Shown: positions 2-49,826 of the stretch, piece by piece | Layout of the letters: each line of letters starts with the position of its first letter | Numbering within the stretch: position 1 is the first letter of the stretch | DNA from: Escherichia phage JLBYU19 | Sequence record: OK272489.1 | DNA: 49,897 nt | Reading direction: 5' to 3' (one strand) | Notes under the pieces: model-generated | Told to the model about the DNA's origin: nothing | The model's database searches: none | The model's input: only the letters and a program-made list of their open reading frames with translations | Position numbers and translations under genes: made by a program

Positions 2-931
2 TTATAGCAGTGATTCGGGCTTGTAGAGTTTTCTTTCTACGCCCTGTTTAAAATTATCGTTAACAGGCATCATTATGTCAAGCCCTCTTTCCTCTGCCGC
101 GATTATCACATCACGATCATCTTTCCGGCAGACTACGCGCATTCTTCTTTCTCCTTTATATCTATGCGCAACCATTTCAAGATTTGAAGGAGTAAAACAG
201 GCCCACACCTCTTGACCAGTTGATAAATGAACATGCTGAGAATCAACCCAATCAAGGCACAAATAGATCGTCTTATCTGTACTACCTGTTTTAACAACAG
301 ATCCGCGCGTGTAGTCGCGAGCTAAAAACCAATCCTTTCCATCCTCATCAATGAAAAGCACGTTACACATTTCATCATCCAGCCCGTCATCATGCACCAG
401 GTGACAAGGTAGCGCGTGAATGTATCGACCATCCTTGACGCCGCAATCATAATGACAATCTTCCGGCGGATATATCCCCTCATAAACGCTTAAAGGTGTG
501 CGATCGAATTTTAATGTTTTTGCCATCACTTTTTCGCAACATTCATGACTTGCCTGTTTCCCGAACGAGTAACCAGAAGAACGCGAAGCGCGTTTGTTTG
601 CTCTGATCCTGTAATCTTGTGGCACTTTTCCGAGGAAGCGGCCCAAAATGTTGATGGCCTCGCTGTAAGGTTCGCCAGTTAATTTCATTAACCAACCGAT
701 CCCCGTGTCGTTGCCGCACACGTTGCAGATCGCGCCGCCGTCGCCCTCTTCATTTAGCTTATCAGTCCATCTAAAACGATCCTTACCGCCGCAGTGTGGG
801 CAAGGCTGATGCTTTTTGTTGAAAACATCGCTATGCAGCCCGCAAATGCTGTGTAGTGCTTCACGCCATAACCCCTTCATATATGGCAAAACATCTTCTT
901 TCTGATAGGTCATAAAGTTTTCAGTATTCAT
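2..931 (-). CDS. DNA primase (zinc-ribbon + TOPRIM-like)
   Basis: 309 aa from ATG 931 (GAGG RBS); N-terminal CPHCGGKDRFRW zinc-binding motif typical of phage/plasmid primases; track ORF extension to 1009 lacks RBS. Confidence 0.75.
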   Translation of the reverse strand: MNTENFMTYQKEDVLPYMKGLWREALHSICGLHSDVFNKKHQPCPHCGGKDRFRWTDKLNEEGDGGAICNVCGNDTGIGWLMKLTGEPYSEAINILGRFLGKVPQDYRIRANKRASRSSGYSFGKQASHECCEKVMAKTLKFDRTPLSVYEGIYPPEDCHYDCGVKDGRYIHALPCHLVHDDGLDDEMCNVLFIDEDGKDWFLARDYTRGSVVKTGSTDKTIYLCLDWVDSQHVHLSTGQEVWACFTPSNLEMVAHRYKGERRMRVVCRKDDRDVIIAAEERGLDIMMPVNDNFKQGVERKLYKPESLL

Positions 932-986
932 GGCAAACCTCAATAAAAAAGCCCAGCAAATATTATCATTTCGCTGGGCCTTATCA

Positions 987-1463
987 TTAGCTATTCGTGC
1001 TGTTATCACCTTTGTAGAATCTTCCGCCTGGTTCGTAGTCTGAATTTTTGACTACGCGCAACATTTCGTATTTGTCGCAACGGGTAGTAAGAGGCTTGCC
1101 GTTAGAATCAAACCGCAGATCTGGACGACAAAACGAGGCGCGGTATCCTTTGCATCCATTATATTTGTAGTCGTTATGCACCTTTTGTGCTCCAGCGGCT
1201 GAAATCATACCACGCTTTCGCCATTGGTTAACGACTTGCTGAGATACGCGCAGACGTCGAGCCATAGCAGGAACACCGCCGTAATACTCGATCAGAATGT
1301 CAAGGCGAGATTTCAGGCTTGCTTTTACCTCATCTCGCAGGATAAGAAATCCGGTTCGGTGTTTTCGTGGCTTTTTGTCTTTACCTCGTCGCGTTCCGTT
1401 GTTACCGTTAATAGTGCGCTTGTCGATCTCACCCGTAGATACTGCAATTCGTGCATCTTTCAT
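987..1463 (-). CDS. putative HTH DNA-binding protein
   Basis: 158 aa, basic; RRLRVSQQVVNQWRKRG helix-turn-helix-like segment; GAGGTGA RBS; divergent from helicase gene. Confidence 0.5.
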   Translation of the reverse strand: MKDARIAVSTGEIDKRTINGNNGTRRGKDKKPRKHRTGFLILRDEVKASLKSRLDILIEYYGGVPAMARRLRVSQQVVNQWRKRGMISAAGAQKVHNDYKYNGCKGYRASFCRPDLRFDSNGKPLTTRCDKYEMLRVVKNSDYEPGGRFYKGDNSTNS

Positions 1464-3548: not shown

Positions 3549-3967
3549 TGGCTATAACTGATAAAGGCGATTATCTTGAGTTTTACGAAAGGGATCCAAC
3601 CGACACGAGAAGGGAAGTTAATCACCAGATAGATAGTTTTCAGTGGTTGACTTATGCTCATCCTTATTTGCTGGCGTGGCATACGGTAAACGAGAATGAG
3701 AAGTCTAAAGCAACGGCGATGATTGATCAGCAGTCCGGCTTGGTTAAGGGAGTAAGCGATTTCATCATCCTGATTGGTTTAAACGGAAAATACCCCTTTG
3801 CAGCGATTGAGATCAAACGAGTGAATAAATCAGGCAAGGGGAAAGCATCACCAGTCAGCGATGAACAAAAGGCTTTTTTGCGTCGCGTTCGCAGCTTAGG
3901 AGGATTCGCTGCGGTAGCCTACGGATTCAATCAGTTTAAGTTGGCTATTGAATACATGCTTAAATAG
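3548..3967 (+). CDS. VRR-NUC-like nuclease (PD-(D/E)xK)
   Basis: 139 aa; VSDFIIL...IEIKR core; start overlaps helicase stop (TAATG). Confidence 0.6.
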   Translation: MAITDKGDYLEFYERDPTDTRREVNHQIDSFQWLTYAHPYLLAWHTVNENEKSKATAMIDQQSGLVKGVSDFIILIGLNGKYPFAAIEIKRVNKSGKGKASPVSDEQKAFLRRVRSLGGFAAVAYGFNQFKLAIEYMLK

Positions 3968-3982
3968 CACTTTTTGTTAAAA
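3963..3982 (+). promoter_or_regulatory. conserved junction element AATAGCACTTTTTGTTAAAA
   Basis: exact consensus; contains stop of upstream gene; CATAAT at 4002-4007, 22 nt after TTGTTA. Confidence 0.6.
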
Positions 3983-4041
3983 CTGGCGCGATGGATTGCG
4001 CCATAATTCAATAACACGAGATAGCTTTTAATAGCGGAGAA

Positions 4042-4777: not shown

Positions 4778-5035
4778 ATGGAAAAAGAGAGAAGCGTTTA
4801 TTTAAATGAAACTGGCGAGTGGTTGTTATTTCGCGCTATGGTGTGCGATGCACTTGATAAAAACCCTAACGTGAAAAAGATGATTGATTGCGATCCGTGG
4901 GAATTTTCAAGCGCATTAGATATGAGCTTTGAGGAGACAAGAAAACTCCCGCTTGAAAAATGGCACGAACAAATCAGAAATGACATGCAAGAGTTTGTCG
5001 ATTCGTGGAATTTTCAGCACGGAATGATCCACTAA
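4778..5035 (+). CDS. hypothetical protein
   Basis: 85 aa ORF; GGAG RBS; stop codon embedded in conserved junction element. Confidence 0.5.
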   Translation: MEKERSVYLNETGEWLLFRAMVCDALDKNPNVKKMIDCDPWEFSSALDMSFEETRKLPLEKWHEQIRNDMQEFVDSWNFQHGMIH

Positions 5036-5053
5036 TAGCACTTTTTGTTAAAA
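5034..5053 (+). promoter_or_regulatory. conserved junction element AATAGCACTTTTTGTTAAAA
   Basis: exact consensus; CATAAT at 5073-5078; GC dyad 5055-5073. Confidence 0.6.
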
Positions 5054-5110
5054 CGCCCGGCCTAGTGTCGGGCATAATTATTTCAACGAAGCAAACATGA
5101 GGAAATAAAA

Positions 5111-8488: not shown

Positions 8489-8810
8489 CGCCCATCTCCC
8501 CTATTCTAGCCATATCCCTGATCCAGTCGTTGCGCATACCATCCAGGCTATACAATTCGAATCCGAAAGGCCGCTTTGACGATCCTTTGGACCAGTATTT
8601 TCCGCAGACTCCATCTATATAACCAGCCGTCATCATTCTTGCGCAAAATTCCTTAGATGCAAGGCTGGCGAACATTCGCGGCGTAAGTCCGGCGGCCCGT
8701 GCGAGCCGCTCACATTCTCTATGCTGATAGATAAATTTGGCTATGTGCTGCCTGTTAAACCAGTCGTATGACTCACACCATTTATACAGATCAAGCAAAA
8801 ACATAATCAT
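8415..8810 (-). CDS. hypothetical protein
   Basis: 131 aa; start overlaps stop of upstream gene (ATGA). Confidence 0.5.
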   Translation of the reverse strand: MIMFLLDLYKWCESYDWFNRQHIAKFIYQHRECERLARAAGLTPRMFASLASKEFCARMMTAGYIDGVCGKYWSKGSSKRPFGFELYSLDGMRNDWIRDMARIGEMGDDELFQAKANRQDLEALRRKFNLT

Positions 8811-10387
8811 CCCAGCAGTATTGGATTGACAAAAATAACACCATTAATCACACAAACATAATTTCTTTCTTCCAGCATTGGCAGCAAGTGCCCTTCTATC
8901 CTCTTCATTACGCCAGCCTGACCAACGAAAGGTTTTACCTTTCTCGCTGATTCGTACAGGGCGCGAATATTCAGGATCCCTTTGTTCGCCTTGCCGTGCC
9001 TCGTGATCAATTCAATCAATTTACCCATTTCAGCATCATCACCAGCATAACCAGAAGCATTGGCGGCGCTAATGTATGTTTTGCTCAATTCCTGAAACAT
9101 GATCAACGCCTCTTGCATTGTTTCCACGTCGATCTCTTTCGACTTCTGCGGGTATCCGGCAGGATTAAACCAGTTACGGATAACATGCAGGACGGAAGCA
9201 AGCCTGATCACCTGTTTATCCATTTTACCCAGCGCACCGCGTAACATTGTATGAGAATACTTTCCGCCGTCTGCAAGATGCGGTTCCATATCCTGGCGAG
9301 CAATGTTGAGCACTCGCATAGCTGAACGGCTTATTTTCAGCGATATATTTGATTCGCTCATGATGTTATGCACCAATTGATAATATTGGGCCTTCAATTC
9401 AGGATCCACCGCCTCATAGGTAGAATCACCATTTTCATCAATGAATGAGCGACGGCCTAAGAATGATTCCTCACGGACCAACAAAAAGCGCTCACTCACA
9501 CCGATACCGCGCGATCCAGCGTCCATGATTCCGCTTATCGTTTCATCCTGGGCTATAACGCTCATACATCCAAGCGCGCGAAAACTCATGTTATTGTCAG
9601 CATTAGCACGGGCAATTGATACGTGACCATTATCCCACGCCTTAAGCACTAGCTCGCTGTTAGTCTTCCTTTCGCTATTGGCATAGGTCAAGCCTAACAG
9701 GCTGTTAATACTTGTTGCTTCGTCAGATATTACGGCAAAGTTACCTTGCTTGTTGTTGATTTTCGCCAAGCCTTCTGGAGTTGTATCTGAAACAGGGAAA
9801 GTTATATCACACATCTTTTCCAGCTTCTCCTCCAGATCCTCTTTTTCCTGGTATAGAGATTCCATATCAGCGCCGGACCTTTCGCTTTTCATCTCCTTTG
9901 CAAGACCTGCCAACTTTGCCTGTATTTTCTTTCTTTCCTTGCGGCGTTGCTCGTTGATCTTCTCAACTTCCGCAATCATCGGAGCAATAGCCATGCTGTT
10001 GATCGCAGATTTACCAGTTGACGGCGGCTGGCTTGTAACGACGTAAAGCGCAGTCGGCTGATCTGTTCCGTGATAGTCAACCGTAAAGCGTCCAAGCATA
10101 GCGGCAGAAATGCAGCCGATAAAGTGCATGTAAGCCGATGATTCAGGGAATTGAACGGATCGCGCAATGCTGCGTGATAGCTTTCCGACAACATCAATAT
10201 CATTACCAAGAGAAATAACGGGGTAGCGATCGTGACCGCTATTTACATCCTTCACGTCGCCCCAAAAGCTGGACGACTGGCGATAGCCGTTAGCCTGAAT
10301 TGATACGCGAACTGGTGAAAGGTTCTGGCTTTCAGCCATAGCGATTATTTGCTGTGGAGTTAATTTGTTCGTTTCTAATGAAAACAT
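8807..10387 (-). CDS. putative replication-associated protein with P-loop-like motif
   Basis: 526 aa; PPSTGKSA P-loop-like segment, central charged coiled-coil; AAGGAG RBS; first gene after junction element 10441. Confidence 0.45.
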   Translation of the reverse strand: MFSLETNKLTPQQIIAMAESQNLSPVRVSIQANGYRQSSSFWGDVKDVNSGHDRYPVISLGNDIDVVGKLSRSIARSVQFPESSAYMHFIGCISAAMLGRFTVDYHGTDQPTALYVVTSQPPSTGKSAINSMAIAPMIAEVEKINEQRRKERKKIQAKLAGLAKEMKSERSGADMESLYQEKEDLEEKLEKMCDITFPVSDTTPEGLAKINNKQGNFAVISDEATSINSLLGLTYANSERKTNSELVLKAWDNGHVSIARANADNNMSFRALGCMSVIAQDETISGIMDAGSRGIGVSERFLLVREESFLGRRSFIDENGDSTYEAVDPELKAQYYQLVHNIMSESNISLKISRSAMRVLNIARQDMEPHLADGGKYSHTMLRGALGKMDKQVIRLASVLHVIRNWFNPAGYPQKSKEIDVETMQEALIMFQELSKTYISAANASGYAGDDAEMGKLIELITRHGKANKGILNIRALYESARKVKPFVGQAGVMKRIEGHLLPMLEERNYVCVINGVIFVNPILLG

Positions 10388-15555: not shown

Positions 15556-15614
15556 TGCTATCTCCTGAGCGGTTCGTTTCGATGTGTGTAATGTACCCGA
15601 TCAGACGGCCTGAG

Positions 15615-15634
15615 TTTTAACAAAAAGTGCTATT
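15615..15634 (-). promoter_or_regulatory. conserved junction element (minus strand)
   Basis: exact consensus; TACATT 22 nt downstream; faces away from AT-rich control region. Confidence 0.6.
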
Positions 15635-15663
15635 TGACGGTTAGCGCCAGGATTGTGATCGAA

Positions 15664-15753
15664 ATAATCAGAAGTAATCATTCGTAATCAAATCACGTCA
15701 AAATGATGATTGCCTTTGCAAATTTGATGAGAAAAGTAATCACGTTTAATCAT
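15664..15753. repeat. iteron-like short direct repeats (A/G)TAATCA
   Basis: ATAATCA 15665, GTAATCA 15674, GTAATCA 15684, GTAATCA 15736, TTAATCA 15747; first three spaced 9-10 bp. Confidence 0.5.
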
Positions 15754-15936
15754 TGGTTGCAGGGGAGATAGTGAAACCTTCCCCTCTTGCCTCACTTTTC
15801 CGCCTGGCTGTCAGTGGTTGTTGTCTTTTGTTCACCCCTGTTACCGATTTCAGGCGGCGTGTTTCCGCGCGGTTTTCCGGTGTAGCGAAAACGGAAAAAA
15901 CAAAAAAAATCCTATATAATACATTGAAAATAAAGA

Positions 15937-16075
15937 TTATTTATTTATATATATCTATAATGTTTTCTTTTTGTTCTCACTGTTACAGTGCTTTTTGTTG
16001 GGTGTGGTGTGGTTGTGTGTTGGTATATATGGATAGTTGCGCGCGCGGCGGATTGCATATGTATATATACTTTTT
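15937..16075. repeat. AT/GT-rich block homologous to 43926-44060
   Basis: TTATTTATTTAT(A/G)TAT... then TTGTTTT(C/T)TT.., GT-rich GGTGTGGTGTGG, ATGTATATATAC; same order in both copies. Confidence 0.55.
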
Positions 16076-16188
16076 CCGGCGGATTGCGTTAACAGCGTGA
16101 ACAGAAAAATAACAGCCCTGAAATCAACAACTTGCGCATGATTTTGTAGTTTTTCGATATTGGTAACGTTTTGAATACAACAAAAACA

Positions 16189-16216
16189 TTGACACGCACC
16201 AAATAGCTTTTATAAT
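16189..16216 (+). promoter_or_regulatory. sigma70-type promoter (consensus hexamers)
   Basis: TTGACA 16189-16194, 16-nt spacer, TATAAT 16211-16216; 32 nt upstream of ATG 16248. Confidence 0.6.
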
Positions 16217-18532: not shown

Positions 18533-19123
18533 ATGAAACGAGACATTATTATCCTTAATGGGCCGCCTGGCTGTGGAAAGGACACTATTGCAGCTTACCT
18601 AACGGGCCATCGTTACCCAGCGGTTAAGGCGTCATTCAAGCAGCCGATGTTCGATATTGCGTTTTCCATGCTGGGCGTGTACAGATACGATGAATTTATG
18701 GACCTGTACAACGACCGAGAACAAAAAGAAAAGCCTCAAGTTATTTTGGGCGGCAAGTCACCTCGACAATTCATGATCTGGATTAGCGAGGATGTAATGA
18801 AGCCAGTTTTTGGGGATCACTATTTCGGGCGTCGAATGGTTGAAGAGATTCACGAGATGTACCGAGATTTGGCGGTTGTGATCAGTGATGGCGGATTCCC
18901 CGAAGAAATCAAGCCGCTCGTTAAGGCGGGGCATGAGGTGCATATTTGCCGATTGCATCGCGACGGCTTCACGTTTGCTGGCGATTCGAGAGACTACATT
19001 GACCTGAGCGGTTATCACTATCGAATCCATCACTATGACTTCCACTTGCAGGACGGCAAGCCGGAACTGGCTGTAAACGAGATCGTCAATACTGTCAAAT
19101 GGAAGCACACACAGATTAAATAG
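18533..19123 (+). CDS. P-loop nucleotide kinase (dNMP kinase-like)
   Basis: 196 aa; N-terminal Walker A ILNGPPGCGKDT. Confidence 0.6.
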   Translation: MKRDIIILNGPPGCGKDTIAAYLTGHRYPAVKASFKQPMFDIAFSMLGVYRYDEFMDLYNDREQKEKPQVILGGKSPRQFMIWISEDVMKPVFGDHYFGRRMVEEIHEMYRDLAVVISDGGFPEEIKPLVKAGHEVHICRLHRDGFTFAGDSRDYIDLSGYHYRIHHYDFHLQDGKPELAVNEIVNTVKWKHTQIK

Positions 19124-19137
19124 CACGAATTGCTAAA
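19119..19137 (+). promoter_or_regulatory. conserved junction element (variant AATAGCACGAATTGCTAAA)
   Basis: TTGCTA variant; TATAAT at 19158-19163; GC dyad 19139-19157. Confidence 0.55.
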
Positions 19138-19193
19138 CGCGGGGTTATCGGCCCCGCTATAATGCGCACATCAACAATCAAGAGGAAATCACA

Positions 19194-20123: not shown

Positions 20124-20414
20124 ATGGCAAACAAAACTTACCGCAAACTACTGGTTAACGCTTTTGAAAACATCGCGCAGTGTAACAAGTGGAACGACTC
20201 TAAACACTCGCCAGTCACAATGAAGCGCGCAGGATTCAAAAATGCTCGTTCATGGGCGCGAGCTTTCGCAGCTTGCTATATGCCGGATGGCGGACTAGGG
20301 GTGATGAACGATTTTTTGATCAACATGATAGAGGAAGCGGCGCGAGAGGATCGACCGCTGACACAGCGAGATTTTGACGACTTCGCGCGCGATGAGCTTT
20401 ACTATCTGAGCTAA
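20124..20414 (+). CDS. hypothetical protein
   Basis: 96 aa; AAGGGGA RBS; stop inside junction element. Confidence 0.45.
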   Translation: MANKTYRKLLVNAFENIAQCNKWNDSKHSPVTMKRAGFKNARSWARAFAACYMPDGGLGVMNDFLINMIEEAAREDRPLTQRDFDDFARDELYYLS

Positions 20415-20432
20415 TAGCACTTTTTGTTAAAA
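20413..20432 (+). promoter_or_regulatory. conserved junction element AATAGCACTTTTTGTTAAAA
   Basis: exact consensus; TAAAGT at 20452-20457 within AAGGGCA/TGCCCTT dyad. Confidence 0.6.
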
Positions 20433-20489
20433 CTTCCGCAAGGGCATTTGGTAAAGTGCCCTTATTGAAGCGAAACAGAGGAAAGCGCA

Positions 20490-38890: not shown

Positions 38891-38914
38891 ACCCGCCTTG
38901 CGCGGGTTTTTTTG
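38891..38914 (+). terminator. intrinsic terminator after gpI-like gene
   Basis: ACCCGC-cttg-CGCGGGT hairpin + T7. Confidence 0.6.
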
Positions 38915-38962
38915 TGCATTTATAATGTGCAAACCAAGAAACAGCACAAAAGGTTAAAAGTC

Positions 38963-41900
38963 ATGGCTAAATATATGATAAGCGGCAGCAAGGGCGGAAG
39001 CAAAAAGCCATACGTGCCAAAAGAGATGGAAGATAACCTTATCTCGATAAACAAGATTAAAGTTTTGCTGGCTGTATCTGATGGCGAGTGCGATCCAGAT
39101 TTCACGTTGCGCGATCTTTATCTTGATGATGTTCCGGTTATTGCCAGCGATGGCACTGTTAACTACGAGGGAGTTACGGCTGAATATCGACCAGGTACGC
39201 AGACGCAAGATTACATCCAGGGTTTTACTGACACATCAAGTGAGGTGACAGTTGCAAGAGATATTACCGGAGACAATCCTTATATTATTTCTGTTACAAA
39301 TAAAAATCTATCTGCGGTAAGAATAAAGATCCTGATGCCAGTAGGCATTAAAACAGAGGATAACGGCGATCTTGTTGGCGTAAGGGTTGAGTATGCCGTA
39401 GATATGGCTGTTGATGGCGGTTCTTATAGCGAGGTTATGAGAGATGTAATTGACGGCAAGACAAGATCAGGATACGACCGCAGCAGAAGGATTGATCTTC
39501 CTAAGTTTGATGAGCGCGTTTTAATCCGAGTAAAGCGACTGACTCCAGACAGCACATCTTCAAAGGTGACTGATAAAATCAAGCTGCAAAGTTACGCTGA
39601 GGTTATTGATGCAAAATTCCGCTATCCTCTGACTGGACTTGTATTCGTAGAATTTGACAGCGAATTGTTTCCTACGCAAATCCCTAACATTTCTATAAAA
39701 AAGAAATGGAAGATTATTAATGTGCCAAGCAACTATGATCCAATATCAAGAGAATATCACGGGTCATGGGATGGGACTTTTAAAAAAGCGTGGTCAAATA
39801 ATCCTGCTTGGGTTCTTTATGATCTGGTGACAAATCAGCGTTATGGACTTGATCAGCGAGAGTTAGGAATACAGATCGACAAGTGGAGCTTATACGAGGC
39901 GGGCGTTTACTGCGATCAGAAAGTTCCAGACGGTAAAGGCGGCACTGAGCCTCGCTACCTATGCGATGTGGTGATTCAGAATCAAGTTGAGGCTTATCAG
40001 CTAATCCGTGACATTTGCTCAATCTTTCGCGGAATGAGTTTTTGGAATGGTGAGAGCTTATCAATCGTGATTGATAAGCCGCGCGATCCATCATACGTGT
40101 TTACTAATGAAAACGTCATCAACGGTGATTTTCAGTACACAAACGCAAGCGAAAAAAGCATGTACACGCAGTGTAACGTGACGTTTGACGACGAACAAAA
40201 CATGTATCAGCAGGACGTAGAGGGGGTTTTTGATACTGAGGCGGCATTACGATTTGGATACAACCCAACAAGCATTACAGCGATCGGGTGTACGCGCAGG
40301 AGCGAAGCGAATCGTCGCGGTCGTTGGGTTTTGAAAACAAACCTTAGAAGCACTACTGTAAACTTTGCTACCGGACTAGAGGGGATGATTCCATCAATAG
40401 GTGATGTTATTGCTATCGCTGATAATTTTCAGAGTAGCAACCTAACGTTAAACCTATCGGGCCGAGTAATGGAAGTTTCAGGGCTGCAGGTTTTCGTTCC
40501 GTTTAAGGTTGATGCTCGCCCTGGTGATTTTATTATCATCAACAAGCCGGACGGCAAGCCAGTTAAGCGCACGATCTCAAAGGTTAGCGCAGACGGAAAA
40601 ACCATTGAGTTAAATATTGGATTTGGTTTTGATGTTAAGCCTGATACTGTTTTTGCGATTGACCGTACTGATCTTGCGTTGCAGCAATACGTTGTGACAA
40701 CCATCAGCAAGGGTGATGACGAAGACGAGTTTACCTATTCAATCACGGCTGTAGAGTACGATCCGAACAAATACGACGAGATTGATTATGGAGTAAACAT
40801 TGATGACAGACCGACTTCAATTGTTCAGCCTGACGTGATGGCAGCGCCTGAGAACGTTAAGATCTCATCTTATTCTCGCGTCGTGCAGGGTGTTAGCGTT
40901 GAGACTATGGTTGTTTCATGGGATAAGGTTCCTTACGCATCGCTTTATGAAATGCAGTGGCGAAAAGGTGATGGTAACTGGCTGAATACGCCGCAGACCG
41001 CTAACAAAGAGATAGAGGTAGAAGGGATTTACTCTGGCAACTACCAAGTAAGGGTGAGATCCGTTTCTGCAAGCGGTAACGCTTCCCCGTGGTCAAAGAT
41101 TGCAACCGCCACTCTGACAGGTAAAGTTGGAGAGCCAGGAGCGCCGATTAATCTTACGGCTTCTGATAATGAAGTTTTTGGCATTCGTGTCAAATGGGGT
41201 ATGCCGGAAGGATCAGGCGATACGGCTTACATTGAGCTTCACCAATCGCCAGACGGAACGGTTGAAAACTCAAGTCTGCTTACGCTGATTCCATATCCTC
41301 AATATGAGTATTGGCATAGCACGTTACCAGCGGGGCAAGTTGTATGGTATAGAATCCGCAGCGTTGACAGAATAGGCAACGTTTCAAGCTGGACTGACTT
41401 TGTTCGCGGCATGGCGTCAGATGACGTTGAATCTGTTTTGGGCGACATTCTGGACAAGATTTTTGATACAGAAGCTGGTCAAGAAATCAAAGAGAACGCC
41501 ATAGACAGTGCCAATAAAATCAAAGACCAGGCGCAATCAATCATACAGAACGCGTTGGCAAATGATGCAGATGTGAAGTGGACGCGAGTGCAAAACGGAA
41601 AGCGCAAGGCTGAATATGGTCATGCTCTTGAGCTTATCGCCAATGAAACAGAAGCGCGCGTAACTCAAATCGAAGAATTAAGGGCATCAATTGATGGCGA
41701 GATAACATCAAGCATCAAGACAGTGCAGGAGGCAATTGCCACTGAATCAGAGACGCGAGCGACTCAAATTCAGCAGCTTGATTCTAAATTCACAAAAGAA
41801 ATCGACGGCGTGCGCAAGGATACTTCTGCAAGCATTAGCGATGTAAGGCAGACAATCACTAACGAGTCAGAAGCGCGCGCTCAGGCCGTTCAGCAGCTTG

Positions 41901-42541
41901 ACGCTAAGTTCACGAAAGAGATAAACGACCTTGACGGAGTTATCAAAACAGAAGTCGAGGCTAACATCTCAGAAGTGAAACAGGCGATCGCCAATGAGAC
42001 AGAGGCAAGGGTTCAGGCTGACCAGGCATTAACAGCACGATTTGGCGACGTTGAATCTGCATTGGTTGAAAAGTTGGATTCTTGGGCGAGCGTTGATTCA
42101 GTTGGGGCTAAATACGCTATGAAACTTGGCCTTACTTACAAAGGCCAGCAATACAGCGCAGGAATGGTGATGCAGCTTTCGCAGGGTTCATCCGGCCTTA
42201 TCTCGCAAATTTTGTTTGATGCTAACAGGTTCGCCATTATGACTAGCTCTACTGGAGGGACTTTTACTTTGCCTTTCGTGGTTGAGAATAATCAGGTTTT
42301 CATTAATAGTCTTTTGGTGAAGAACGGTTCAATCACTAATGCGATGATTGGTAATGTGATTCAGTCAAACAACTTTGTTCAAAACCAGCAAGGATGGAGG
42401 CTTGATAAAAACGGAATCTTTGAGAATTACGGATCAACGCCAGGAGAAGGAGCTACTAAATTCACCAATGAGGGATTGAAGGTAAAAGATGCAAACGGAG
42501 TATTGAGGGTTGAAGTCGGAAGGATTACCGGAAGCTGGTAA
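38963..42541 (+). CDS. central tail fiber / host-specificity protein (lambda gpJ-like)
   Basis: 1192 aa from ATG 38963; largest ORF of tail module, after gpI-like gene. Confidence 0.8.
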   Translation: MAKYMISGSKGGSKKPYVPKEMEDNLISINKIKVLLAVSDGECDPDFTLRDLYLDDVPVIASDGTVNYEGVTAEYRPGTQTQDYIQGFTDTSSEVTVARDITGDNPYIISVTNKNLSAVRIKILMPVGIKTEDNGDLVGVRVEYAVDMAVDGGSYSEVMRDVIDGKTRSGYDRSRRIDLPKFDERVLIRVKRLTPDSTSSKVTDKIKLQSYAEVIDAKFRYPLTGLVFVEFDSELFPTQIPNISIKKKWKIINVPSNYDPISREYHGSWDGTFKKAWSNNPAWVLYDLVTNQRYGLDQRELGIQIDKWSLYEAGVYCDQKVPDGKGGTEPRYLCDVVIQNQVEAYQLIRDICSIFRGMSFWNGESLSIVIDKPRDPSYVFTNENVINGDFQYTNASEKSMYTQCNVTFDDEQNMYQQDVEGVFDTEAALRFGYNPTSITAIGCTRRSEANRRGRWVLKTNLRSTTVNFATGLEGMIPSIGDVIAIADNFQSSNLTLNLSGRVMEVSGLQVFVPFKVDARPGDFIIINKPDGKPVKRTISKVSADGKTIELNIGFGFDVKPDTVFAIDRTDLALQQYVVTTISKGDDEDEFTYSITAVEYDPNKYDEIDYGVNIDDRPTSIVQPDVMAAPENVKISSYSRVVQGVSVETMVVSWDKVPYASLYEMQWRKGDGNWLNTPQTANKEIEVEGIYSGNYQVRVRSVSASGNASPWSKIATATLTGKVGEPGAPINLTASDNEVFGIRVKWGMPEGSGDTAYIELHQSPDGTVENSSLLTLIPYPQYEYWHSTLPAGQVVWYRIRSVDRIGNVSSWTDFVRGMASDDVESVLGDILDKIFDTEAGQEIKENAIDSANKIKDQAQSIIQNALANDADVKWTRVQNGKRKAEYGHALELIANETEARVTQIEELRASIDGEITSSIKTVQEAIATESETRATQIQQLDSKFTKEIDGVRKDTSASISDVRQTITNESEARAQAVQQLDAKFTKEINDLDGVIKTEVEANISEVKQAIANETEARVQADQALTARFGDVESALVEKLDSWASVDSVGAKYAMKLGLTYKGQQYSAGMVMQLSQGSSGLISQILFDANRFAIMTSSTGGTFTLPFVVENNQVFINSLLVKNGSITNAMIGNVIQSNNFVQNQQGWRLDKNGIFENYGSTPGEGATKFTNEGLKVKDANGVLRVEVGRITGSW

Positions 42542-43732: not shown

Positions 43733-43788
43733 CTTCAATACTCCTTAGTTGTTGTTGGATGCAACTATACACGATCTTGGGCATCGCG

Positions 43789-43807
43789 TTTAGCAAAAAG
43801 TGCTATT
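43789..43807 (-). promoter_or_regulatory. conserved junction element (AATAGCACTTTTTGCTAAA on minus strand)
   Basis: TATAGT 21-22 nt downstream on minus strand; precedes Cor-like lipoprotein operon. Confidence 0.55.
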
Positions 43808-43925
43808 TGTTATTTTTTGTTTTCCGGTGTTATCGAATTTAAGACGGCGTAAATTTAGCGCAAAATTTAGACAACATAAGATCAATAAACAATCAATAAA
43901 ATAGATATATACATATAAAATCAAT

Positions 43926-44060
43926 AGTTTATTTATTTATGTATGTATATTTGTTTTTTCTTGTTATCTGCGTTTCTTGTGGTTTTGGTTGTTTGTGGTG
44001 ATTTTTCTTTCTGAGTATCTGTATGTGCCATCATTCATGTGTATGTATATAATCCGGCGT
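43926..44060. repeat. AT/GT-rich block homologous to 15937-16075
   Basis: TTTATTTATTTATGTATGTATATTTGTTTTTTCTTGTT, TTGTGGTTTTGGTTGTTTGTGGTG, GTGTATGTATATAAT. Confidence 0.55.
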
Positions 44061-44175
44061 ATCTGAGAGAACATGGGAACAAGAAAAATAACACACATTA
44101 ATCATTAACTTATGAGTCAAATCTGTTTTCTTGCCATCTGAGAACGTTTAGAAAACAGAAAAAACAAAACAGCTA

Positions 44176-44203
44176 TTGACTAAATCAACCAAGTGGCTAC
44201 AAT
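44176..44203 (+). promoter_or_regulatory. sigma70-type promoter
   Basis: TTGACT 44176-44181, 16-nt spacer, TACAAT 44198-44203; upstream of exonuclease gene. Confidence 0.55.
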
Positions 44204-46810: not shown

Positions 46811-47314
46811 TTCTAACGTGGTTGGTTTGTTTACCAGTGCCGCTACAACCGCTTTTAGCTCGTCAATTTCTTTTCTCATCTCATCGTTTTCCGCTTTCAG
46901 TTTCTTAACGTGGTGAATCAGTGGAACAGTGAGGCGGTCATACATAACGCCTTCCGCCACCATGCCATTACTTGAAGCAATGGCAGGATCTTCTCCTTCT
47001 TGCAGCGGTCGCCAGTGAACGTACTCCGGCGCAATTTCTCCAACCTCTTCCGCGATTAGCCCGTACCATCCCCAATCTTTACGGTCGCTTTCACAAGTTG
47101 ACCGATACCAAACAGGACGCATTTCAAGCATCAGATCCGCATATTCATCAATAACCGATTCTACGCTGCTCTTATAACGAGAAGAGGAAGTGGAGCGTAA
47201 AACTTGCGACACTCCAGCATTTGGATCAAGCCATAAGTTTGCTGATTGAGCGGTTGTGTTAAGATTAAATAAATAAAATGCATCGTTACCAGTTAGGGGG
47301 GTAAAAACTCCCAC
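46808..47314 (-). CDS. tail-fiber C-terminal chaperone-like domain protein (peptidase S74-like)
   Basis: 168 aa from GTG 47314; SSRYKSSVESV ... DWGWYGLIAEEVGEIAPEYV resembles auto-processing chaperone domain of tail fibers. Confidence 0.45.
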   Translation of the reverse strand: MGVFTPLTGNDAFYLFNLNTTAQSANLWLDPNAGVSQVLRSTSSSRYKSSVESVIDEYADLMLEMRPVWYRSTCESDRKDWGWYGLIAEEVGEIAPEYVHWRPLQEGEDPAIASSNGMVAEGVMYDRLTVPLIHHVKKLKAENDEMRKEIDELKAVVAALVNKPTTLE

Positions 47315-47546
47315 TATACCTTCCGCTACCCAACTCGGATGATAGATCAGTTTGTTTTAGATACAGCTTCAACTTATTGTCAACATCAGTAGTTGATGCT
47401 TTTCCTGCGACATCCTGTTTTAGTGTCGAAACATCACTTTTCAGCTTCGTTATATCACCAGGAATAGTAGCAACATCCTGTTTTAGTGTTGAAACGTCAT
47501 TTTTCAGCTTCGTTATATCACTAGGTATAACAGTGACTGTAGCCAT
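47286..47546 (-). CDS. tail fiber-like coiled-coil repeat protein (possible upstream part of split fiber gene)
   Basis: 86 aa; two 21-aa repeats DITKLKxDVSTLKQDVA; overlaps next ORF by 29 nt in another frame. Confidence 0.45.
   Translation of the reverse strand: MATVTVIPSDITKLKNDVSTLKQDVATIPGDITKLKSDVSTLKQDVAGKASTTDVDNKLKLYLKQTDLSSELGSGRYSGSFYPPNW
47411..47526. repeat. tandem direct repeat, 2 x 63 bp
   Basis: CATCCTGTTTTAGTGTCGAAACATCACTTTTCAGCTTCGTTATATCACCAGG repeated with few substitutions 63 bp apart; encodes 21-aa repeat. Confidence 0.6.
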
Positions 47547-47558
47547 TTTCCTAACTCC

Positions 47559-47837
47559 TTAAGCCCATTCTCTAATAGGCTGATCTAACTCAACCACGTA
47601 TCCATTAAAAATTACGGCATCAAACTTATCATCAATGATTCGCACATTAACGAAATAGCCGTCGTTCTTTCGCGCAATCTCCTCGCCATCGTCAGATCGT
47701 GCAATTACTGTATAAGTATTGCCGATTACATCGAGCAGGATTGCATCCTGAATGGATTCGTTATCATCCCAATTAATTTTTCCTAAAAAGGCCGAAAACT
47801 CGGCCTTGTCTGAAAATTTTAATGTTAAATCACGCAT
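47559..47837 (-). CDS. hypothetical protein
   Basis: 92 aa from ATG 47837 (TAATG overlap with fiber gene stop). Confidence 0.4.
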   Translation of the reverse strand: MRDLTLKFSDKAEFSAFLGKINWDDNESIQDAILLDVIGNTYTVIARSDDGEEIARKNDGYFVNVRIIDDKFDAVIFNGYVVELDQPIREWA

Positions 47838-49792
47838 TAAACAATTTCCCCCAATTGATGATCTGTTAGTGCCTTGTGCCATATACGGAAGTTTCTAACG
47901 TGCCCGAAAAGATGACGTTCTCCCGTAGTTGTTTGTCCGCCAATCCTTATAGTAGCCGTCGATCTTATGTATCTCCATTCCGCTTTTGATTCGCTTGATA
48001 TTATGGAATTACTTACACAACAAGTATTGTAATCACTCTTTACTCTCATTCCCATGATCATCTTTTTTAGTTTCGCATTCTCGTAAACCCTTCGGTTTGA
48101 GTTACCTATGTCGCAACAAGGGAATCCGTCATTATCGCCTTCGGCAGACCCGAAAGCAAGAATTATTGCCGCTCCGGTTTGATGGCCGGATGTATCAAAA
48201 ACACGTGGCGCAGCGTTTGGCGTTATACTCCAGTTTTTATGAGCTTCCACAAGCACTGTAAACGGCAAATTGTAAAGGTTGTTTTTTATTGGCAATGTAA
48301 CCATATCGCTTGCCCTTGTTGTCGGACTTTCATTAGTTATAATGAATGATGAAGCGCAAGATCCAACCTCTACTTGAGGAGTTGTTAAATCCATAAAGCT
48401 ATTTTCATCAAAAACTTCTCCTTGTTTATTAACGACCTGTATTACCCCCCTAATGGAAGTTGATTCATCAGTAACTTTGTAAACTATTTCTGCAAAAATC
48501 CATTCCCCGTCTATGGTAGCGTTCTTTAGCACTATGTTTTTTGCGTCAACTCCAGAAGTTGCCACCCCTAAGTTATCGCAATCAATAATAGCAGAAGCAA
48601 CAGAAGATAAAGGATCTCCCTTGTCAAATCTTGCTGCAAATCTTACATTTTTCCCCTTAGCCCTAAAAGATATTGTAACTCCATCACCCTTTACAACTGC
48701 AATCTTATTTGTAGTAAGTCCAGCTATAATAGTGTAAGAGCCTACGCCACCTAAATATTCCCCTGGTTTAAATGTTGCATACTTAAACCCCCTTTCATCA
48801 GTCTTAGTTTCACCTCTTTCTAATCTTGGATTTGGATTCCATGATTCAGGCTTATTTGAATTTACAAAATAGTTTGTTCTCTGCCCTTCAATCAAAAGAC
48901 CATCCTTTTCAAATCTAGGTTCATCAATAGCAGCATCAGTAAGCAACCCAGACTTATTAATGTAAGTAGCGGTTGATGCACGTTTAAACTTAACAATCTT
49001 GTCACCTGGCATCGTGATCTCATCATCACCTATGACAATCTTTTTGTATGACGGCGAGAATCCGGTGATCATATCCAGGGAATCATTAAATGGTATCCAC
49101 ACGTCAGGTAGAGGCTGCAATAAATCTTTGTAAGGTTCTGCGGCCTGTTTTGCGTATTCCTCCGCTTGATCTCGCGCACTTTCAGCGCCTGCCTTTGCGG
49201 TGTTCGCAGCATCACGCGCAGTTTCAGCGCCTTTTCTTGCAGTTTCAGCGCCAGTCTTTGCAGTGTTTGCAGCGTCGCGCGCGGATTCAGCGGCAGCCTT
49301 TGCAGTGTCAGCACCTTTCTTGCTATTCTCTGCATTTGTTGCGCTTGTCTTTGCGTTATTCTCGCTAGTTTTAGCTGCCTTCTGGCTTGCTGCGGCTGCG
49401 TCAGCATTTGTCTTTACGTCTTCCTGGATCTTCTGTAGCTTATCCCAATCAAAATCCTTGATGATCTCAATAAATCCAGCAAACTCCGATTCCTTCCCCT
49501 GGTAATAACGCAACGTTTCCGCTACGTCTTGCGCAAGACCGTCAACCGTTAACGAGTCATGAAGCAAGATCAGGTAATTTGTCTTCTGTACTACCGCGCC
49601 TCCAGTAGTAATTGCGCGAATGCTTGTATCGCTAATCACTTCTGTAATCACAGCAGCTTGCAAAGGTTGAGCAAGAAAGAAAATAGTTGCACCTGGGCGA
49701 ATCAAGGTTAATTGCTCACGCCATTTTGTACCGTAACCAGTTACATAACCTTGCGCGTCCATAGACGCTTGGCCTTGTCTGTAAATCGCCAT
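47837..49792 (-). CDS. tail fiber protein
   Basis: 651 aa from ATG 49792 (AGGAGG RBS 9 nt upstream); Ala-rich repeat region TAKAAAESARDAANTAK. Confidence 0.65.
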   Translation of the reverse strand: MAIYRQGQASMDAQGYVTGYGTKWREQLTLIRPGATIFFLAQPLQAAVITEVISDTSIRAITTGGAVVQKTNYLILLHDSLTVDGLAQDVAETLRYYQGKESEFAGFIEIIKDFDWDKLQKIQEDVKTNADAAAASQKAAKTSENNAKTSATNAENSKKGADTAKAAAESARDAANTAKTGAETARKGAETARDAANTAKAGAESARDQAEEYAKQAAEPYKDLLQPLPDVWIPFNDSLDMITGFSPSYKKIVIGDDEITMPGDKIVKFKRASTATYINKSGLLTDAAIDEPRFEKDGLLIEGQRTNYFVNSNKPESWNPNPRLERGETKTDERGFKYATFKPGEYLGGVGSYTIIAGLTTNKIAVVKGDGVTISFRAKGKNVRFAARFDKGDPLSSVASAIIDCDNLGVATSGVDAKNIVLKNATIDGEWIFAEIVYKVTDESTSIRGVIQVVNKQGEVFDENSFMDLTTPQVEVGSCASSFIITNESPTTRASDMVTLPIKNNLYNLPFTVLVEAHKNWSITPNAAPRVFDTSGHQTGAAIILAFGSAEGDNDGFPCCDIGNSNRRVYENAKLKKMIMGMRVKSDYNTCCVSNSIISSESKAEWRYIRSTATIRIGGQTTTGERHLFGHVRNFRIWHKALTDHQLGEIV

Positions 49793-49807
49793 TTGTAAAA
49801 TCCTCCT

Positions 49808-49826
49808 AAATAGCACTTTTTGCTAA
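49808..49826 (+). promoter_or_regulatory. conserved junction element, oriented away from adjacent tail fiber gene
   Basis: AAATAGCACTTTTTGCTAA directly abutting AGGAGG RBS of minus-strand fiber gene; second AATAGCA at 49838. Confidence 0.4.

What the first reader, a model, noticed from the sequence alone, without database searches (positions are those of the whole stretch)
15937..16075. Two homologous AT/GT-rich blocks about 28 kb apart, each upstream of a rightward early operon
Blocks 15937-16075 and 43926-44060 share the same ordered sequence: TTATTTATTTAT(A/G)TAT, then TTGTTTTYTT, a GT-rich TGTGG run, and ATGTATATA. Each lies between a leftward junction-element promoter (15615, 43789) and a rightward sigma70-type promoter (16189, 44176). 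These are duplicated control regions and are candidate origins, curved-DNA/UP regions or host-factor binding sites.
Basis: seen in the sequence. Interest (0 to 1): 0.6.

Follow-up and report, generated by a model that had tools for sequence, protein, structure and literature searches.

The report
Twin origin-like control modules in T1-like phage
The two blocks are the cores of a conserved ~370-base non-coding module that every T1-like phage examined carries twice, built like a replication origin (repeated protein-binding words around the most easily melted DNA in the genome) and joined to a strong early promoter, so it gives a testable candidate for the still-unmapped T1 replication origin.

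Summary
The window is a near-complete T1-like phage genome (Drexlerviridae, Warwickvirus). Blocks 15937-16075 and 43926-44060 align far better than shuffled sequence (z 7.4), and the homology extends over about 370 nt (15817-16188 and 43804-44175; z 25). Each module ends at a near-consensus sigma70 promoter.

The same two-copy module is present in T1, TLS, Stevie, haarsle, Samwise and MKP-1. One copy lies in the large divergent intergenic region that holds the T1/TLS pac site. The other lies upstream of recE.

Each module has phased, oppositely oriented arrays of a short word. The word is lineage-specific: TGTTCN, GTGTAACA or GTAAGAT. The arrays flank the least stable AT-rich DNA in the genome and its most G+T-skewed tract. 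An IHF-consensus site and an A-tract lie next to the -35.

No conserved ORF, RNA structure, DnaA box or Chi site was found.

My best reading (about 0.45) is twin iteron-plus-unwinding-element origins coupled to early promoters, analogous to SPP1 oriL/oriR or P4 ori/crr. The main rival (about 0.3) is a purely transcriptional control region. Function is inferred, not shown.

The parts
15607..15634 (-). Leftward copy of the known T1/TLS 21-nt direct repeat (aaATAGCACnnnTTGnTAAAA). It forms the left boundary of intergenic region A.
   Evidence: Repeat family D1. The repeat is described in PMC11447400 with unknown function.
15635..15816 (.). A-only segment, absent from copy B. It carries five TAATCA words in 10-bp phase (15665, 15675, 15685, 15737, 15747). 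It corresponds to where T1 and TLS place coordinate 1 (the pac site).
   Evidence: Gap in the A/B alignment; word positions; T1/TLS record coordinates and the TLS pac mapping.
15817..16188 (+). Module A, the full extent of homology with module B.
   Evidence: nhmmer profile hit 15818-16188.
15819..15844 (+). Forward word array 1: TGTT at 15819, 15829 and 15839, spaced 10 bp. It includes an exact TGTTCACC.
15893..15911 (+). A-tract with AACA, forming the reverse arm of unit 1.
15912..15961 (.). AT-rich core (CTATATAATA ... TTATTTATTTATATATAT). It is the least stable 50-bp duplex in the genome and the candidate DNA-unwinding element.
   Evidence: Nearest-neighbour dG -46.4 kcal/mol against a genome mean of -68.3 (z 4.8), rank 1.
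15961..15986 (+). Forward word array 2: TGTTTT, TGTTCT and TGTTAC at 15961, 15972 and 15981.
15987..16030 (+). G+T-rich tract (GCTTTTTGTTGGGTGTGGTGTGGTTGTGTGTTGG).
   Evidence: The 60-nt window starting at 15965 has keto skew 0.70, second highest in the genome.
16031..16075 (.). Alternating purine-pyrimidine tracts (GCGCGCGCG, CATATGTATATATAC), with a GGCGGATTGC direct repeat at 16047 and 16078.
16076..16114 (+). CCGGCG box followed by the reverse word array (TTAACA, TGAACA and ATAACA at 16089, 16098 and 16109).
16122..16134 (+). Exact match to the IHF consensus WATCAANNNNTTR (AATCAACAACTTG), centred about 95 nt upstream of the predicted start.
   Evidence: Only 5 strict matches exist in the whole genome. 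The column is conserved in the module alignment.
16172..16216 (+). A-tract (UP-like) plus the sigma70 promoter TTGACA-16-TATAAT.
   Evidence: It is orthologous to TLS promoter P01.
43780..43807 (-). Leftward 21-nt direct repeat that abuts module B.
43804..44175 (+). Module B.
   Evidence: nhmmer hit 43806-44166.
43808..43833 (+). Forward word array 1: TGTTAT, TGTTTT and TGTTAT at 43808, 43818 and 43828.
43901..43950 (.). AT-rich core, the second least stable 50-bp duplex in the genome.
   Evidence: dG -47.6 kcal/mol, z 4.6. The 100-bp window 43862-43961 ranks first.
43951..44010 (+). Forward word array 2 (43952, 43962) and the G+T-rich tract.
   Evidence: Keto skew 0.77, the highest in the genome; word positions.
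44011..44053 (.). Alternating purine-pyrimidine tract (CATGTGTATGTATATAAT).
44054..44093 (+). CCGGCG box followed by the reverse word array (AGAACA, GGAACA and ATAACA at 44068, 44076 and 44088).
44100..44112 (+). IHF-like site AATCATTAACTTA, with one mismatch to the consensus, at the position orthologous to 16122.
44152..44203 (+). A-tract (UP-like) plus the sigma70 promoter TTGACT-16-TACAAT upstream of recE.
   Evidence: It is orthologous to TLS promoter P51.
8807..10387 (-). DUF3987 helicase, MCM-like AAA+ with a C-terminal winged helix. It is an inferred, unproven candidate reader of the repeat words.
   Evidence: Pfam DUF3987; AlphaFold model with pLDDT 88; MCM matches; winged-helix domain; co-variation of the wing/helix segment with the word type.
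2..1009 (-). Primase, homologous to the primase domain of P4 alpha. It is an inferred trans-acting partner.
   Evidence: Zn_Ribbon_Prim; BLASTP to P4 alpha residues 20-263, E 1e-14.

Best explanation
Each block is the core of a ~370-bp non-coding module that T1-like phages keep in two copies. I read the modules as twin iteron-type replication-origin regions whose opening is coupled to an adjacent strong early promoter.

Shown:
- The module has three sets of a short word arranged in 10-bp-phased arrays of opposite orientation.
- These arrays bracket, first, the most easily melted AT-rich segment of the genome and, second, a strongly G+T-skewed tract ending in alternating purine-pyrimidine DNA.
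- Next come a CCGGCG box, an IHF-consensus site, an A-tract and a near-consensus sigma70 promoter.
- The word differs between phage lineages.

Inferred:
- A phage-encoded protein binds the arrays. The best candidate is the winged-helix end of the MCM-like DUF3987 helicase, working with the P4-alpha-like primase.
- IHF bends the DNA.
- Negative supercoiling behind the firing promoter helps melt the AT core.
- The strand-asymmetric G+T tract then serves as the single-stranded landing or priming zone.

The two copies could be two independent origins, or one origin plus an auxiliary site, as in SPP1 oriL/oriR or P4 ori/crr.
For: 1. Real, extended homology: z 7.4 and z 25.
2. Exactly two full copies per genome in the window, TLS, Stevie, haarsle and Samwise. 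T1 and MKP-1 have the same layout at the same two places. No third copy was found.
3. Word arrays sit at conserved positions: forward at about 5/15/25 and 148/158/168, reverse at about 65-82, 255-285 and 340-360. They are enriched over genome background (Poisson P 1e-2 to 1e-9).
4. An unbiased 6-mer scan recovers lineage-specific words: MKP-1 GTAAGA/TCTTAC, 13 copies in the modules against 10 in the remaining 49 kb (P 6e-21); T1 TGTAAC/GTTACA (P 8e-9); haarsle TGTTAT/ATAACA (P 2e-12); TLS GTGAAC.
5. The AT cores are the two least stable 30-, 50- and 100-bp windows of the genome (z 3.9-5.0). The G+T tracts are the two most keto-skewed 60-nt windows (0.77 and 0.70, next 0.50).
6. An IHF consensus sits at a conserved position. 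There are 5 strict matches genome-wide and 2 are in the A and B intergenic regions.
7. The phage encodes its own primase, homologous to P4 alpha, and an MCM-like helicase with a winged helix. The segment RKVKPF.GQ.GVMKRIE is constant in all TGTTCN phages and altered in T1 and MKP-1.
8. No origin has been identified for T1-like phages. The TLS and SU57 papers report finding none.
9. Precedent exists. SPP1 has two distant origins of similar organisation, with direct repeats plus an AT-rich unwinding element (PMC6316719). P4 ori and crr carry TGTTCACC iterons.
Against: - There is no experimental evidence of initiation at either site.
- Both copies sit directly upstream of two of the three recognisable sigma70 promoters. 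In T1, TLS and Stevie the words run into the core promoter, which fits an operator or enhancer role equally well.
- The words are degenerate. Only the TGTT core is shared, and in haarsle copy A uses TGTTAT while copy B uses TGTTCT. This is unlike the near-identical iterons of P4 or lambda.
- There is no significant sequence homology to P4 ori or crr, and no homolog of the P4 alpha origin-binding domain by sequence.
- The winged helix is a generic fold (best E 0.035). Its co-variation with the word type is confounded by phylogeny.
- GC-skew support is confounded by transcription direction.
- No DnaA boxes are present and the modules contain no GATC.
Confidence: 0.45

Rival explanations
1. The modules are purely transcriptional control regions for the two rightward host-RNA-polymerase promoters. 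IHF bends the upstream A/T-rich DNA onto the polymerase alpha subunits, as at lambda pL. The word arrays are operators or enhancer sites for a phage regulator that times early expression. The AT-rich and G+T-rich DNA acts as a spacer, a supercoil-sensitive element or an H-NS target.
For: Both modules end at near-consensus sigma70 promoters. These correspond to two of the only three sigma70 promoters found in TLS. An A-tract abuts the -35, and the IHF consensus is centred about -95. The words occur inside the promoter spacer or over the -10 in TLS_A, Stev_A and T1_A. The words are lineage-specific, so a phage-encoded DNA-binding protein is implied.
Against: This reading does not explain why the genome's two least stable duplexes and two most strand-skewed tracts are conserved 150-280 nt upstream of the promoters. 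The recognition helix of the annotated HTH regulator does not track the word type: MKP-1 matches the window while TLS differs. About 15 sites spread over 370 bp is unusually large for a phage promoter. The third sigma70 promoter, TLS P57, has no such module.
Confidence: 0.3
2. The shared module is part of the packaging (pac) recognition site. The small terminase would bind the word arrays, as in P1 pac (hexamer arrays plus IHF) or SPP1 pacL/pacR.
For: Copy A lies in the intergenic region where the T1 and TLS records place coordinate 1, the pac site. Hexamer arrays flanking a central region with an IHF site resemble P1 pac; that resemblance is from my own knowledge and was not tested.
Against: Copy B has the full module but lies 28 kb from the mapped pac region. 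TLS shows a single submolar pac fragment. T1 and TLS coordinate 1 falls in the A-only segment, 120-220 nt left of the shared module. That segment has its own phased TAATCA/GATT repeats. TerS divergence does not track the word type.
Confidence: 0.07
3. The module is a recombination or fork-processing site rather than an initiation site. The G+T-rich strand would be a preferred substrate for RecA or Erf-type pairing or a Chi-like signal. Alternatively the bound arrays stall forks to trigger concatemer synthesis, the role proposed for SPP1 oriR.
For: The G+T skew is extreme. Copy B directly precedes recE-erf-ssb. A fork-stalling model for SPP1 oriR is described in the literature.
Against: There is no Chi, and no Chi variant with a single mismatch in its first three positions, in either intergenic region. 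The G+T tract varies in sequence and length between genera. Copy A is not next to recombination genes.
Confidence: 0.08
4. The blocks encode a small structured RNA or a small hydrophobic, Cys-rich peptide.
For: Block A carries an open frame, ATG at 15960 to the stop at 16100. GU-rich RNA could pair with other RNAs.
Against: Nothing in the window reaches an Rfam gathering score. RNAalifold gives a consensus energy of -0.55 kcal/mol with an unfavourable covariation term. Single-sequence z-scores are -0.6, -0.8, -2.35 and -0.5. Frames, lengths and stop positions are not conserved across 10 homologues. There is no ribosome-binding site before the ATG.
Confidence: 0.03

Closest known systems
Bacillus phage SPP1 oriL and oriR
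   Same: SPP1 is also a pac-type siphovirus of about 45-50 kb with two distant regions of similar organisation. Each has direct repeats for a phage origin-binding protein next to an AT-rich unwinding element, and one lies in a long intergenic region (PMC6316719).
   Different: There is no sequence relation. The SPP1 repeats are bound by gp38, which works with a DnaB-type helicase and its loader, whereas T1-like phages have a P4-alpha-like primase and an MCM-like helicase. Here both copies are non-coding and fused to sigma70 promoters. Function here is unproven.
Satellite phage P4 ori and crr (type 1 iterons TGTTCACC bound by the alpha primase-helicase)
   Same: P4 has two cis elements kilobases apart. 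Both carry short words in direct and inverted arrays at 9-11-bp spacing. The Tempevirinae words (TGTTCAC/GTGAACA, with one exact TGTTCACC at 15829) resemble the P4 iteron. The window primase is homologous to the P4 alpha primase domain.
   Different: No significant DNA homology was found. No homolog of the alpha C-terminal origin-binding domain was found by sequence. The words are degenerate and change to GTGTAACA (T1) or GTAAGAT (MKP-1). Primase and helicase are separate genes.
Iteron plasmids with auxiliary origins (R6K alpha/beta/gamma)
   Same: Several related sites share one initiator. Some copies have many iterons and others few, as in MKP-1 where B has 11 and A has 2. IHF sites and an AT-rich region are present. 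The R6K comparison is from my own knowledge.
   Different: This is a phage, not a plasmid. No DnaA box is present. Looping between the copies is speculative.
IHF- and UP-element-activated sigma70 promoters (lambda pL type)
   Same: An IHF consensus lies about 95 nt upstream of the start, with A-tracts against the -35.
   Different: That model covers only the right-hand 110 nt of the module. It does not cover the blocks reported in the finding.
TLS/T1 21-nt direct repeat (aaATAGCACnnnTTGnTAAAA)
   Same: It flanks both modules on the left and shares the AACAAAAAG motif with the module's A-rich arms.
   Different: It is a separate, already described element with 18-21 copies per genome. The blocks are not copies of it.

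Membership tests
Iteron-type replication origin (general) | Multiple copies of a replicon-specific short word clustered at the site. | tested here: met
   Phased arrays. Unbiased 6-mer enrichment gives P from 2e-5 to 6e-21, with lineage-specific words.
Iteron-type replication origin (general) | Adjacent AT-rich DNA-unwinding element. | tested here: met
   The two lowest-stability 30-, 50- and 100-bp windows of the genome lie in A and B. Actual unwinding was not tested.
Iteron-type replication origin (general) | Specific binding of the words by a replicon-encoded initiator. | not testable with these tools
   Only indirect evidence is available. The helicase winged-helix segment co-varies with the word type, while the HTH regulator and TerS do not.
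Iteron-type replication origin (general) | Replication starts there (bubble arcs, marker frequency, autonomous or phage-dependent replication of a cloned fragment). | not testable with these tools
   No data were found in the searched literature. Published 'origins' for T1-like phages are GC-skew minima only.
P4 ori/crr | Type 1 iteron TGTTCACC in multiple copies. | tested here: inconclusive
   The window has one exact TGTTCACC (15829). TLS and Stevie have GTGAACA words. Most copies share only TGTT.
P4 ori/crr | DNA sequence homology to P4 ori or crr. | tested here: not met
   nhmmer E >= 0.31. Local alignment z <= 2.6 in 23 of 24 tests, with one at 3.9.
P4 ori/crr | Alpha-type protein with primase, helicase and a C-terminal origin-binding domain. 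| tested here: inconclusive
   The primase domain is homologous (E 1e-14). No match to alpha residues 264-777 was found. A separate helicase carries a generic winged helix.
SPP1-type dual origins | Two distant regions of similar organisation (direct repeats plus an AT-rich unwinding element). | tested here: met
.
SPP1-type dual origins | gp38-like origin-binding protein. | not tested
   No search for a gp38 homolog was run.
pac site of a headful phage | A single site where the packaging series starts; recognised by the small terminase. | tested here: inconclusive
   The module is present twice. T1 and TLS coordinate 1 maps to the A-only segment left of the module. This rests on record coordinates, and physical ends were not examined.
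UP-element / IHF-assisted sigma70 promoter | A/T-rich -40 to -60 region and an IHF site upstream of a sigma70 core promoter. | tested here: met
   These features lie outside the reported block coordinates. Activation was not tested.
Intrinsically curved DNA | A/T tracts phased at 10-11 bp. | tested here: not met
   AA/TT periodicity within the blocks is at the 32nd-77th percentile. Only 15791- and 43781- reach the 98th-99th percentile.
Known RNA family (Rfam) | Covariance-model match at the gathering score, or conserved structure with covariation. | tested here: not met

The most novel reading that the evidence does not exclude
The two modules may act together as one bipartite replication system. 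The MCM-like helicase would read the lineage-specific words through its C-terminal winged helix. One copy would fire as the origin. The other would either be looped to it as an enhancer (as in P4 ori-crr or R6K) or act as a programmed fork barrier. That barrier, sitting directly upstream of recE-erf-ssb, would switch replication to recombination-dependent concatemer synthesis. Under this reading the promoter, the origin and the pac neighbourhood would form a single integrated control hub in a classical T phage.
Probability: 0.15. Interest if true: 0.8.

Novelty: new variant of a known kind. Interest (0 to 1): 0.58.

Why it matters
T1 is one of the original seven T phages, and Drexlerviridae are abundant in sewage, in gut samples and in laboratory contamination events. 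Even so, no replication origin has been defined for the family, and recent genome papers state that none could be found.

A conserved, precisely delimited pair of candidate origin regions turns this into a direct experiment, such as marker-frequency sequencing or testing whether plasmids carrying a module are amplified on infection. It also suggests how a split P4-alpha-like primase and an MCM-like helicase might be targeted to DNA. Finally, it identifies the cis elements that would have to be preserved or exploited when engineering T1-like phages or building phage-dependent replicons.

If the rival reading is right instead, the module is an unusually large, lineage-tuned enhancer/operator for host-polymerase early promoters. 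That would bear on how these phages time early expression.

Tried and rejected
- Structured ncRNA: no Rfam match, no consensus structure or covariation, folding energies not different from shuffles. Rejected.
- Small peptide ORF (ATG at 15960): frames and stops are not conserved in 10 homologues. Rejected.
- Intrinsic curvature of the blocks: AA/TT periodicity is unexceptional. Rejected for the blocks, possible for the upstream arm.
- Host-factor arrays (ArcA, OmpR or PhoP-like direct repeats, considered from memory): rejected because the word changes between phage lineages, even between phages that infect the same host (T1 and TLS, both E. coli).
- DnaA boxes, Chi and a Dam (GATC) cluster: none in the modules.
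- True homology to P4 ori/crr: not significant.
- A P4 alpha origin-binding domain in a window protein: none by phmmer or BLASTP. PDB sequence searches with the primase and the helicase were uninformative. A fold search with the helicase C-terminal domain gave only generic winged-helix matches, the best being an MCM4 WH at E 0.035.
- HTH regulator (987-1463) as the word reader: its recognition helix does not track the word type.
- Extra sigma70 promoters inside the module (for example at CTATATAATA): no usable -35, and the scan count was not above shuffles.
- A literature search for the bare word TGTTCACC returned only primer sequences.
- Searches for a T1 origin or transcriptome found nothing relevant.
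- Record start positions of deposited genomes near the modules looked arbitrary and were not pursued.

Full report
**What the window is.** Megablast of both regions finds 97-99% identical T1-like coliphages, including orkinos, tuinn, tunzivis and JLBYU16. Orkinos is classified in Drexlerviridae, Tempevirinae, Warwickvirus. At 49,897 bp the window is essentially one whole, circularly permuted genome. On the circle the two blocks are 28.0 kb and 21.9 kb apart.

**Checking the observation.** The ordered motifs are present as described. Local alignment of the two blocks scores 52 against 23.6 +/- 3.9 for dinucleotide-preserving shuffles (z 7.4; 0 of 500). Widening the regions raises this to z 25, and the aligned stretch runs from about 15894 to 16188 and from 43883 to 44166. 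A further matching piece lies at 15817-15860 and 43808-43851.

A profile built from the homologues places the module at 15818-16188 and 43806-44166 and finds no third copy. The left flanks are copies of the 21-nt repeat known from TLS and T1. The right flanks are near-consensus sigma70 promoters.

**Where the copies sit.** Copy A occupies the 690-bp divergent intergenic region between the leftward small-gene arm and the rightward arm that leads to the terminase. In the T1 and TLS records this region straddles coordinate 1, which is the mapped pac site. The SU57 paper places pac in the same untranslated region. Copy B lies upstream of recE (exonuclease VIII), erf and ssb.

Copy A contains a 180-nt segment (15635-15816) with no counterpart in B. 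This segment is where T1 and TLS coordinate 1 maps, and it has its own phased TAATCA words. I infer that the packaging signal belongs to this A-only segment, and that the shared module does something else.

**Conservation.** The same two-copy arrangement is found in:
- T1 (Tunavirinae)
- TLS and Stevie (Tlsvirus)
- haarsle (Hanrivervirus)
- Samwise (Henuseptimavirus)
- Klebsiella phage MKP-1, which I take to be Webervirus-like; its record gives no taxonomy below class

A B-type copy is also present in Rtpvirus IME253.

Module B aligns at about 70% identity over 95% of its length across genera. Within Warwickvirus both modules are 94-99.8% identical. Paralogous copies within a genome are 55-60% identical, and orthologous B copies are 70-95% identical. 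In MKP-1 the AT-rich cores of A and B look nearly identical when the two printed sequences are compared by eye (identity not computed). This suggests the two copies co-evolve.

**Anatomy.** All Tempevirinae copies share one layout, in this order:
1. Three forward words (TGTTnn) at 10-bp spacing.
2. A CCGGCG(T)A box.
3. Two reverse words within an A-tract.
4. CTATATAATA and an AT-rich core.
5. Three forward words.
6. A G+T-rich tract of variable sequence and length.
7. Alternating purine-pyrimidine DNA.
8. A second CCGGCG box.
9. Three reverse words.
10. The conserved block AAATCAnnnnCTTA.
11. An A-tract carrying reverse words.
12. The -35 of the promoter.

Word counts exceed genome background in every copy (P 1e-2 to 1e-9).

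An unbiased 6-mer scan shows that the enriched word depends on the lineage:
- GTAAGA/TCTTAC in MKP-1: 13 copies in the modules against 10 elsewhere (P 6e-21).
- TGTAAC/GTTACA in T1.
- TGTTAT and TGTTCT in haarsle.
- GTGAAC in TLS.

Phages of the same host use different words. The words therefore most likely serve a phage-encoded DNA-binding protein, not a host factor or simple curvature.

**Physical properties.** The AT cores (15912-15961 and 43901-43950) are the two least stable duplex windows in the genome at 30, 50 and 100 bp (z 3.9-5.0). The G+T tracts are the two most keto-skewed 60-nt windows (0.77 and 0.70, next 0.50). AA/TT helical periodicity is not exceptional inside the blocks.

The strict IHF consensus WATCAANNNNTTR occurs five times in the genome. 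Two of these are in the A and B intergenic regions, and one is at the conserved position 16122; its counterpart in B, at 44100, has one mismatch. There are no DnaA boxes, no Chi and no GATC in the modules.

**What it is not.**
- Rfam finds nothing.
- RNAalifold gives essentially no consensus structure.
- Single-sequence folds do not differ from shuffles.
- No reading frame is conserved.

**Candidate trans-acting proteins.** The primase (2-1009, minus strand) is homologous to residues 20-263 of P4 alpha. The DUF3987 protein (8807-10387, minus strand) models confidently (pLDDT 88) as an MCM-like AAA+ helicase with a C-terminal winged helix. The winged helix matches only generic folds.

Its helix-wing segment is constant in the five TGTTCN phages and changed in T1 and MKP-1. 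The recognition helix of the HTH regulator does not follow the word type. This is suggestive only, because phylogeny could produce the same pattern.

**Comparison with known systems.** The P4 record confirms TGTTCACC iterons in both ori and crr, in direct and inverted arrays at 9-11-bp spacing. The resemblance of the Tempevirinae words to that iteron is a lead, not homology: profile and alignment tests against P4 ori and crr are not significant.

SPP1 provides a functional precedent. It has two distant origins of similar organisation, each with direct repeats plus an AT-rich unwinding element. One lies in a long intergenic region and is proposed to stall forks and trigger the switch to concatemer synthesis.

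**Interpretation.** Repeat arrays, an unwinding element, an IHF site and an adjacent strong promoter together are the classical make-up of an iteron-type origin. These phages encode their own primase and helicases, yet have no known origin. I therefore favour twin origin regions coupled to early transcription, at about 0.45.

The main alternative, at about 0.3, is a large enhancer/operator for the two rightward host-polymerase promoters. It is supported by the position of the modules, and by words that reach into the core promoters of T1, TLS and Stevie. The two readings are not mutually exclusive.

A packaging role for the shared module is unlikely because of copy B and the A-only segment. 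Roles in recombination or fork arrest remain possible.

**Novelty.** The searched literature describes the 21-nt repeat and GC-skew 'origins' but not this duplicated module. The TLS paper states that no origin-like repeats were found. I class the module as a new variant of a known kind, namely iteron-type and dual phage origins, with its function still to be shown.

Noticed in passing
window 15635-15816: This A-only segment lies between the leftward 21-nt repeat and module A. It carries five TAATCA words in 10-bp phase (15665, 15675, 15685, 15737, 15747) and a short hairpin (AGGGGA...TCCCCT, about 15773-15797). It corresponds to where T1 and TLS place coordinate 1, so it is a candidate for the true pac/TerS recognition region.
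   Followed up: partly
window 3963-4008, 5034-5079, 19119-19164, 20413-20458 and at least 9 reverse-oriented copies (8271, 10433, 11107, 13797, 14303, 15607, 29250, 33003, 43780): This is the known 21-nt direct repeat AATAGCACnnnTTGnTAAAA. In several copies it is followed by a GC-rich hairpin and then a -10-like ATAATT/TATAAT about 23 nt after the TTGTTA. The layout looks like a promoter whose spacer is too long unless the hairpin matters. The repeat shares AACAAAAAG with the A-rich arms of the modules. Its function is listed as an open question in PMC11447400.
   Followed up: partly
window 8807-10387 (- strand): The DUF3987 'helicase' models as an MCM-like AAA+ protein with a C-terminal winged helix. 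The top PDB matches are eukaryotic and archaeal MCM subunits (E down to 8e-6). The C-terminal 85 residues also match a separate PHROG of unknown function (phrog_7327).
   Followed up: yes
window 16047-16056 and 16078-16087: The direct repeat GGCGGATTGC occurs twice, 31 nt apart, flanking the CATATGTATATATAC tract in block A only. It is not present in block B.
   Followed up: no
window 47407-47529 and 49176-49301: There are two tandem 63-nt repeats (90% and 76% identity). One lies in the ORF 47286-47546 and the other in the large leftward ORF 47837-49816, which has no Pfam match and occupies the position of the tail-fibre gene in T1 and TLS. They are probably coding repeats.
   Followed up: no
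locus L013 (Klebsiella phage MKP-1) 9560-10055 and 44023-44441: In this Klebsiella phage (I take it to be a Webervirus; its record gives no taxonomy below class) the B copy sits directly downstream of the primase gene and carries 11 GTAAGA/TCTTAC words. The A copy carries only 2. The AT-rich cores of the two copies look nearly identical by eye (identity not computed). This is an asymmetric arrangement reminiscent of a main origin plus an auxiliary site.
   Followed up: partly
search results: Fifteen to eighteen GenBank records named 'Campylobacter phage' (MG0656xx, host C. jejuni, unannotated) are T1-like genomes that carry both modules. They are probably coliphage contaminants or mislabelled records.
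   Followed up: no
window 41636-42011: Four to five copies of a roughly 25-nt repeat lie 99-132 nt apart inside the large tail-protein ORF 38912-42541. They are probably coding repeats of a fibre-like domain.
   Followed up: no
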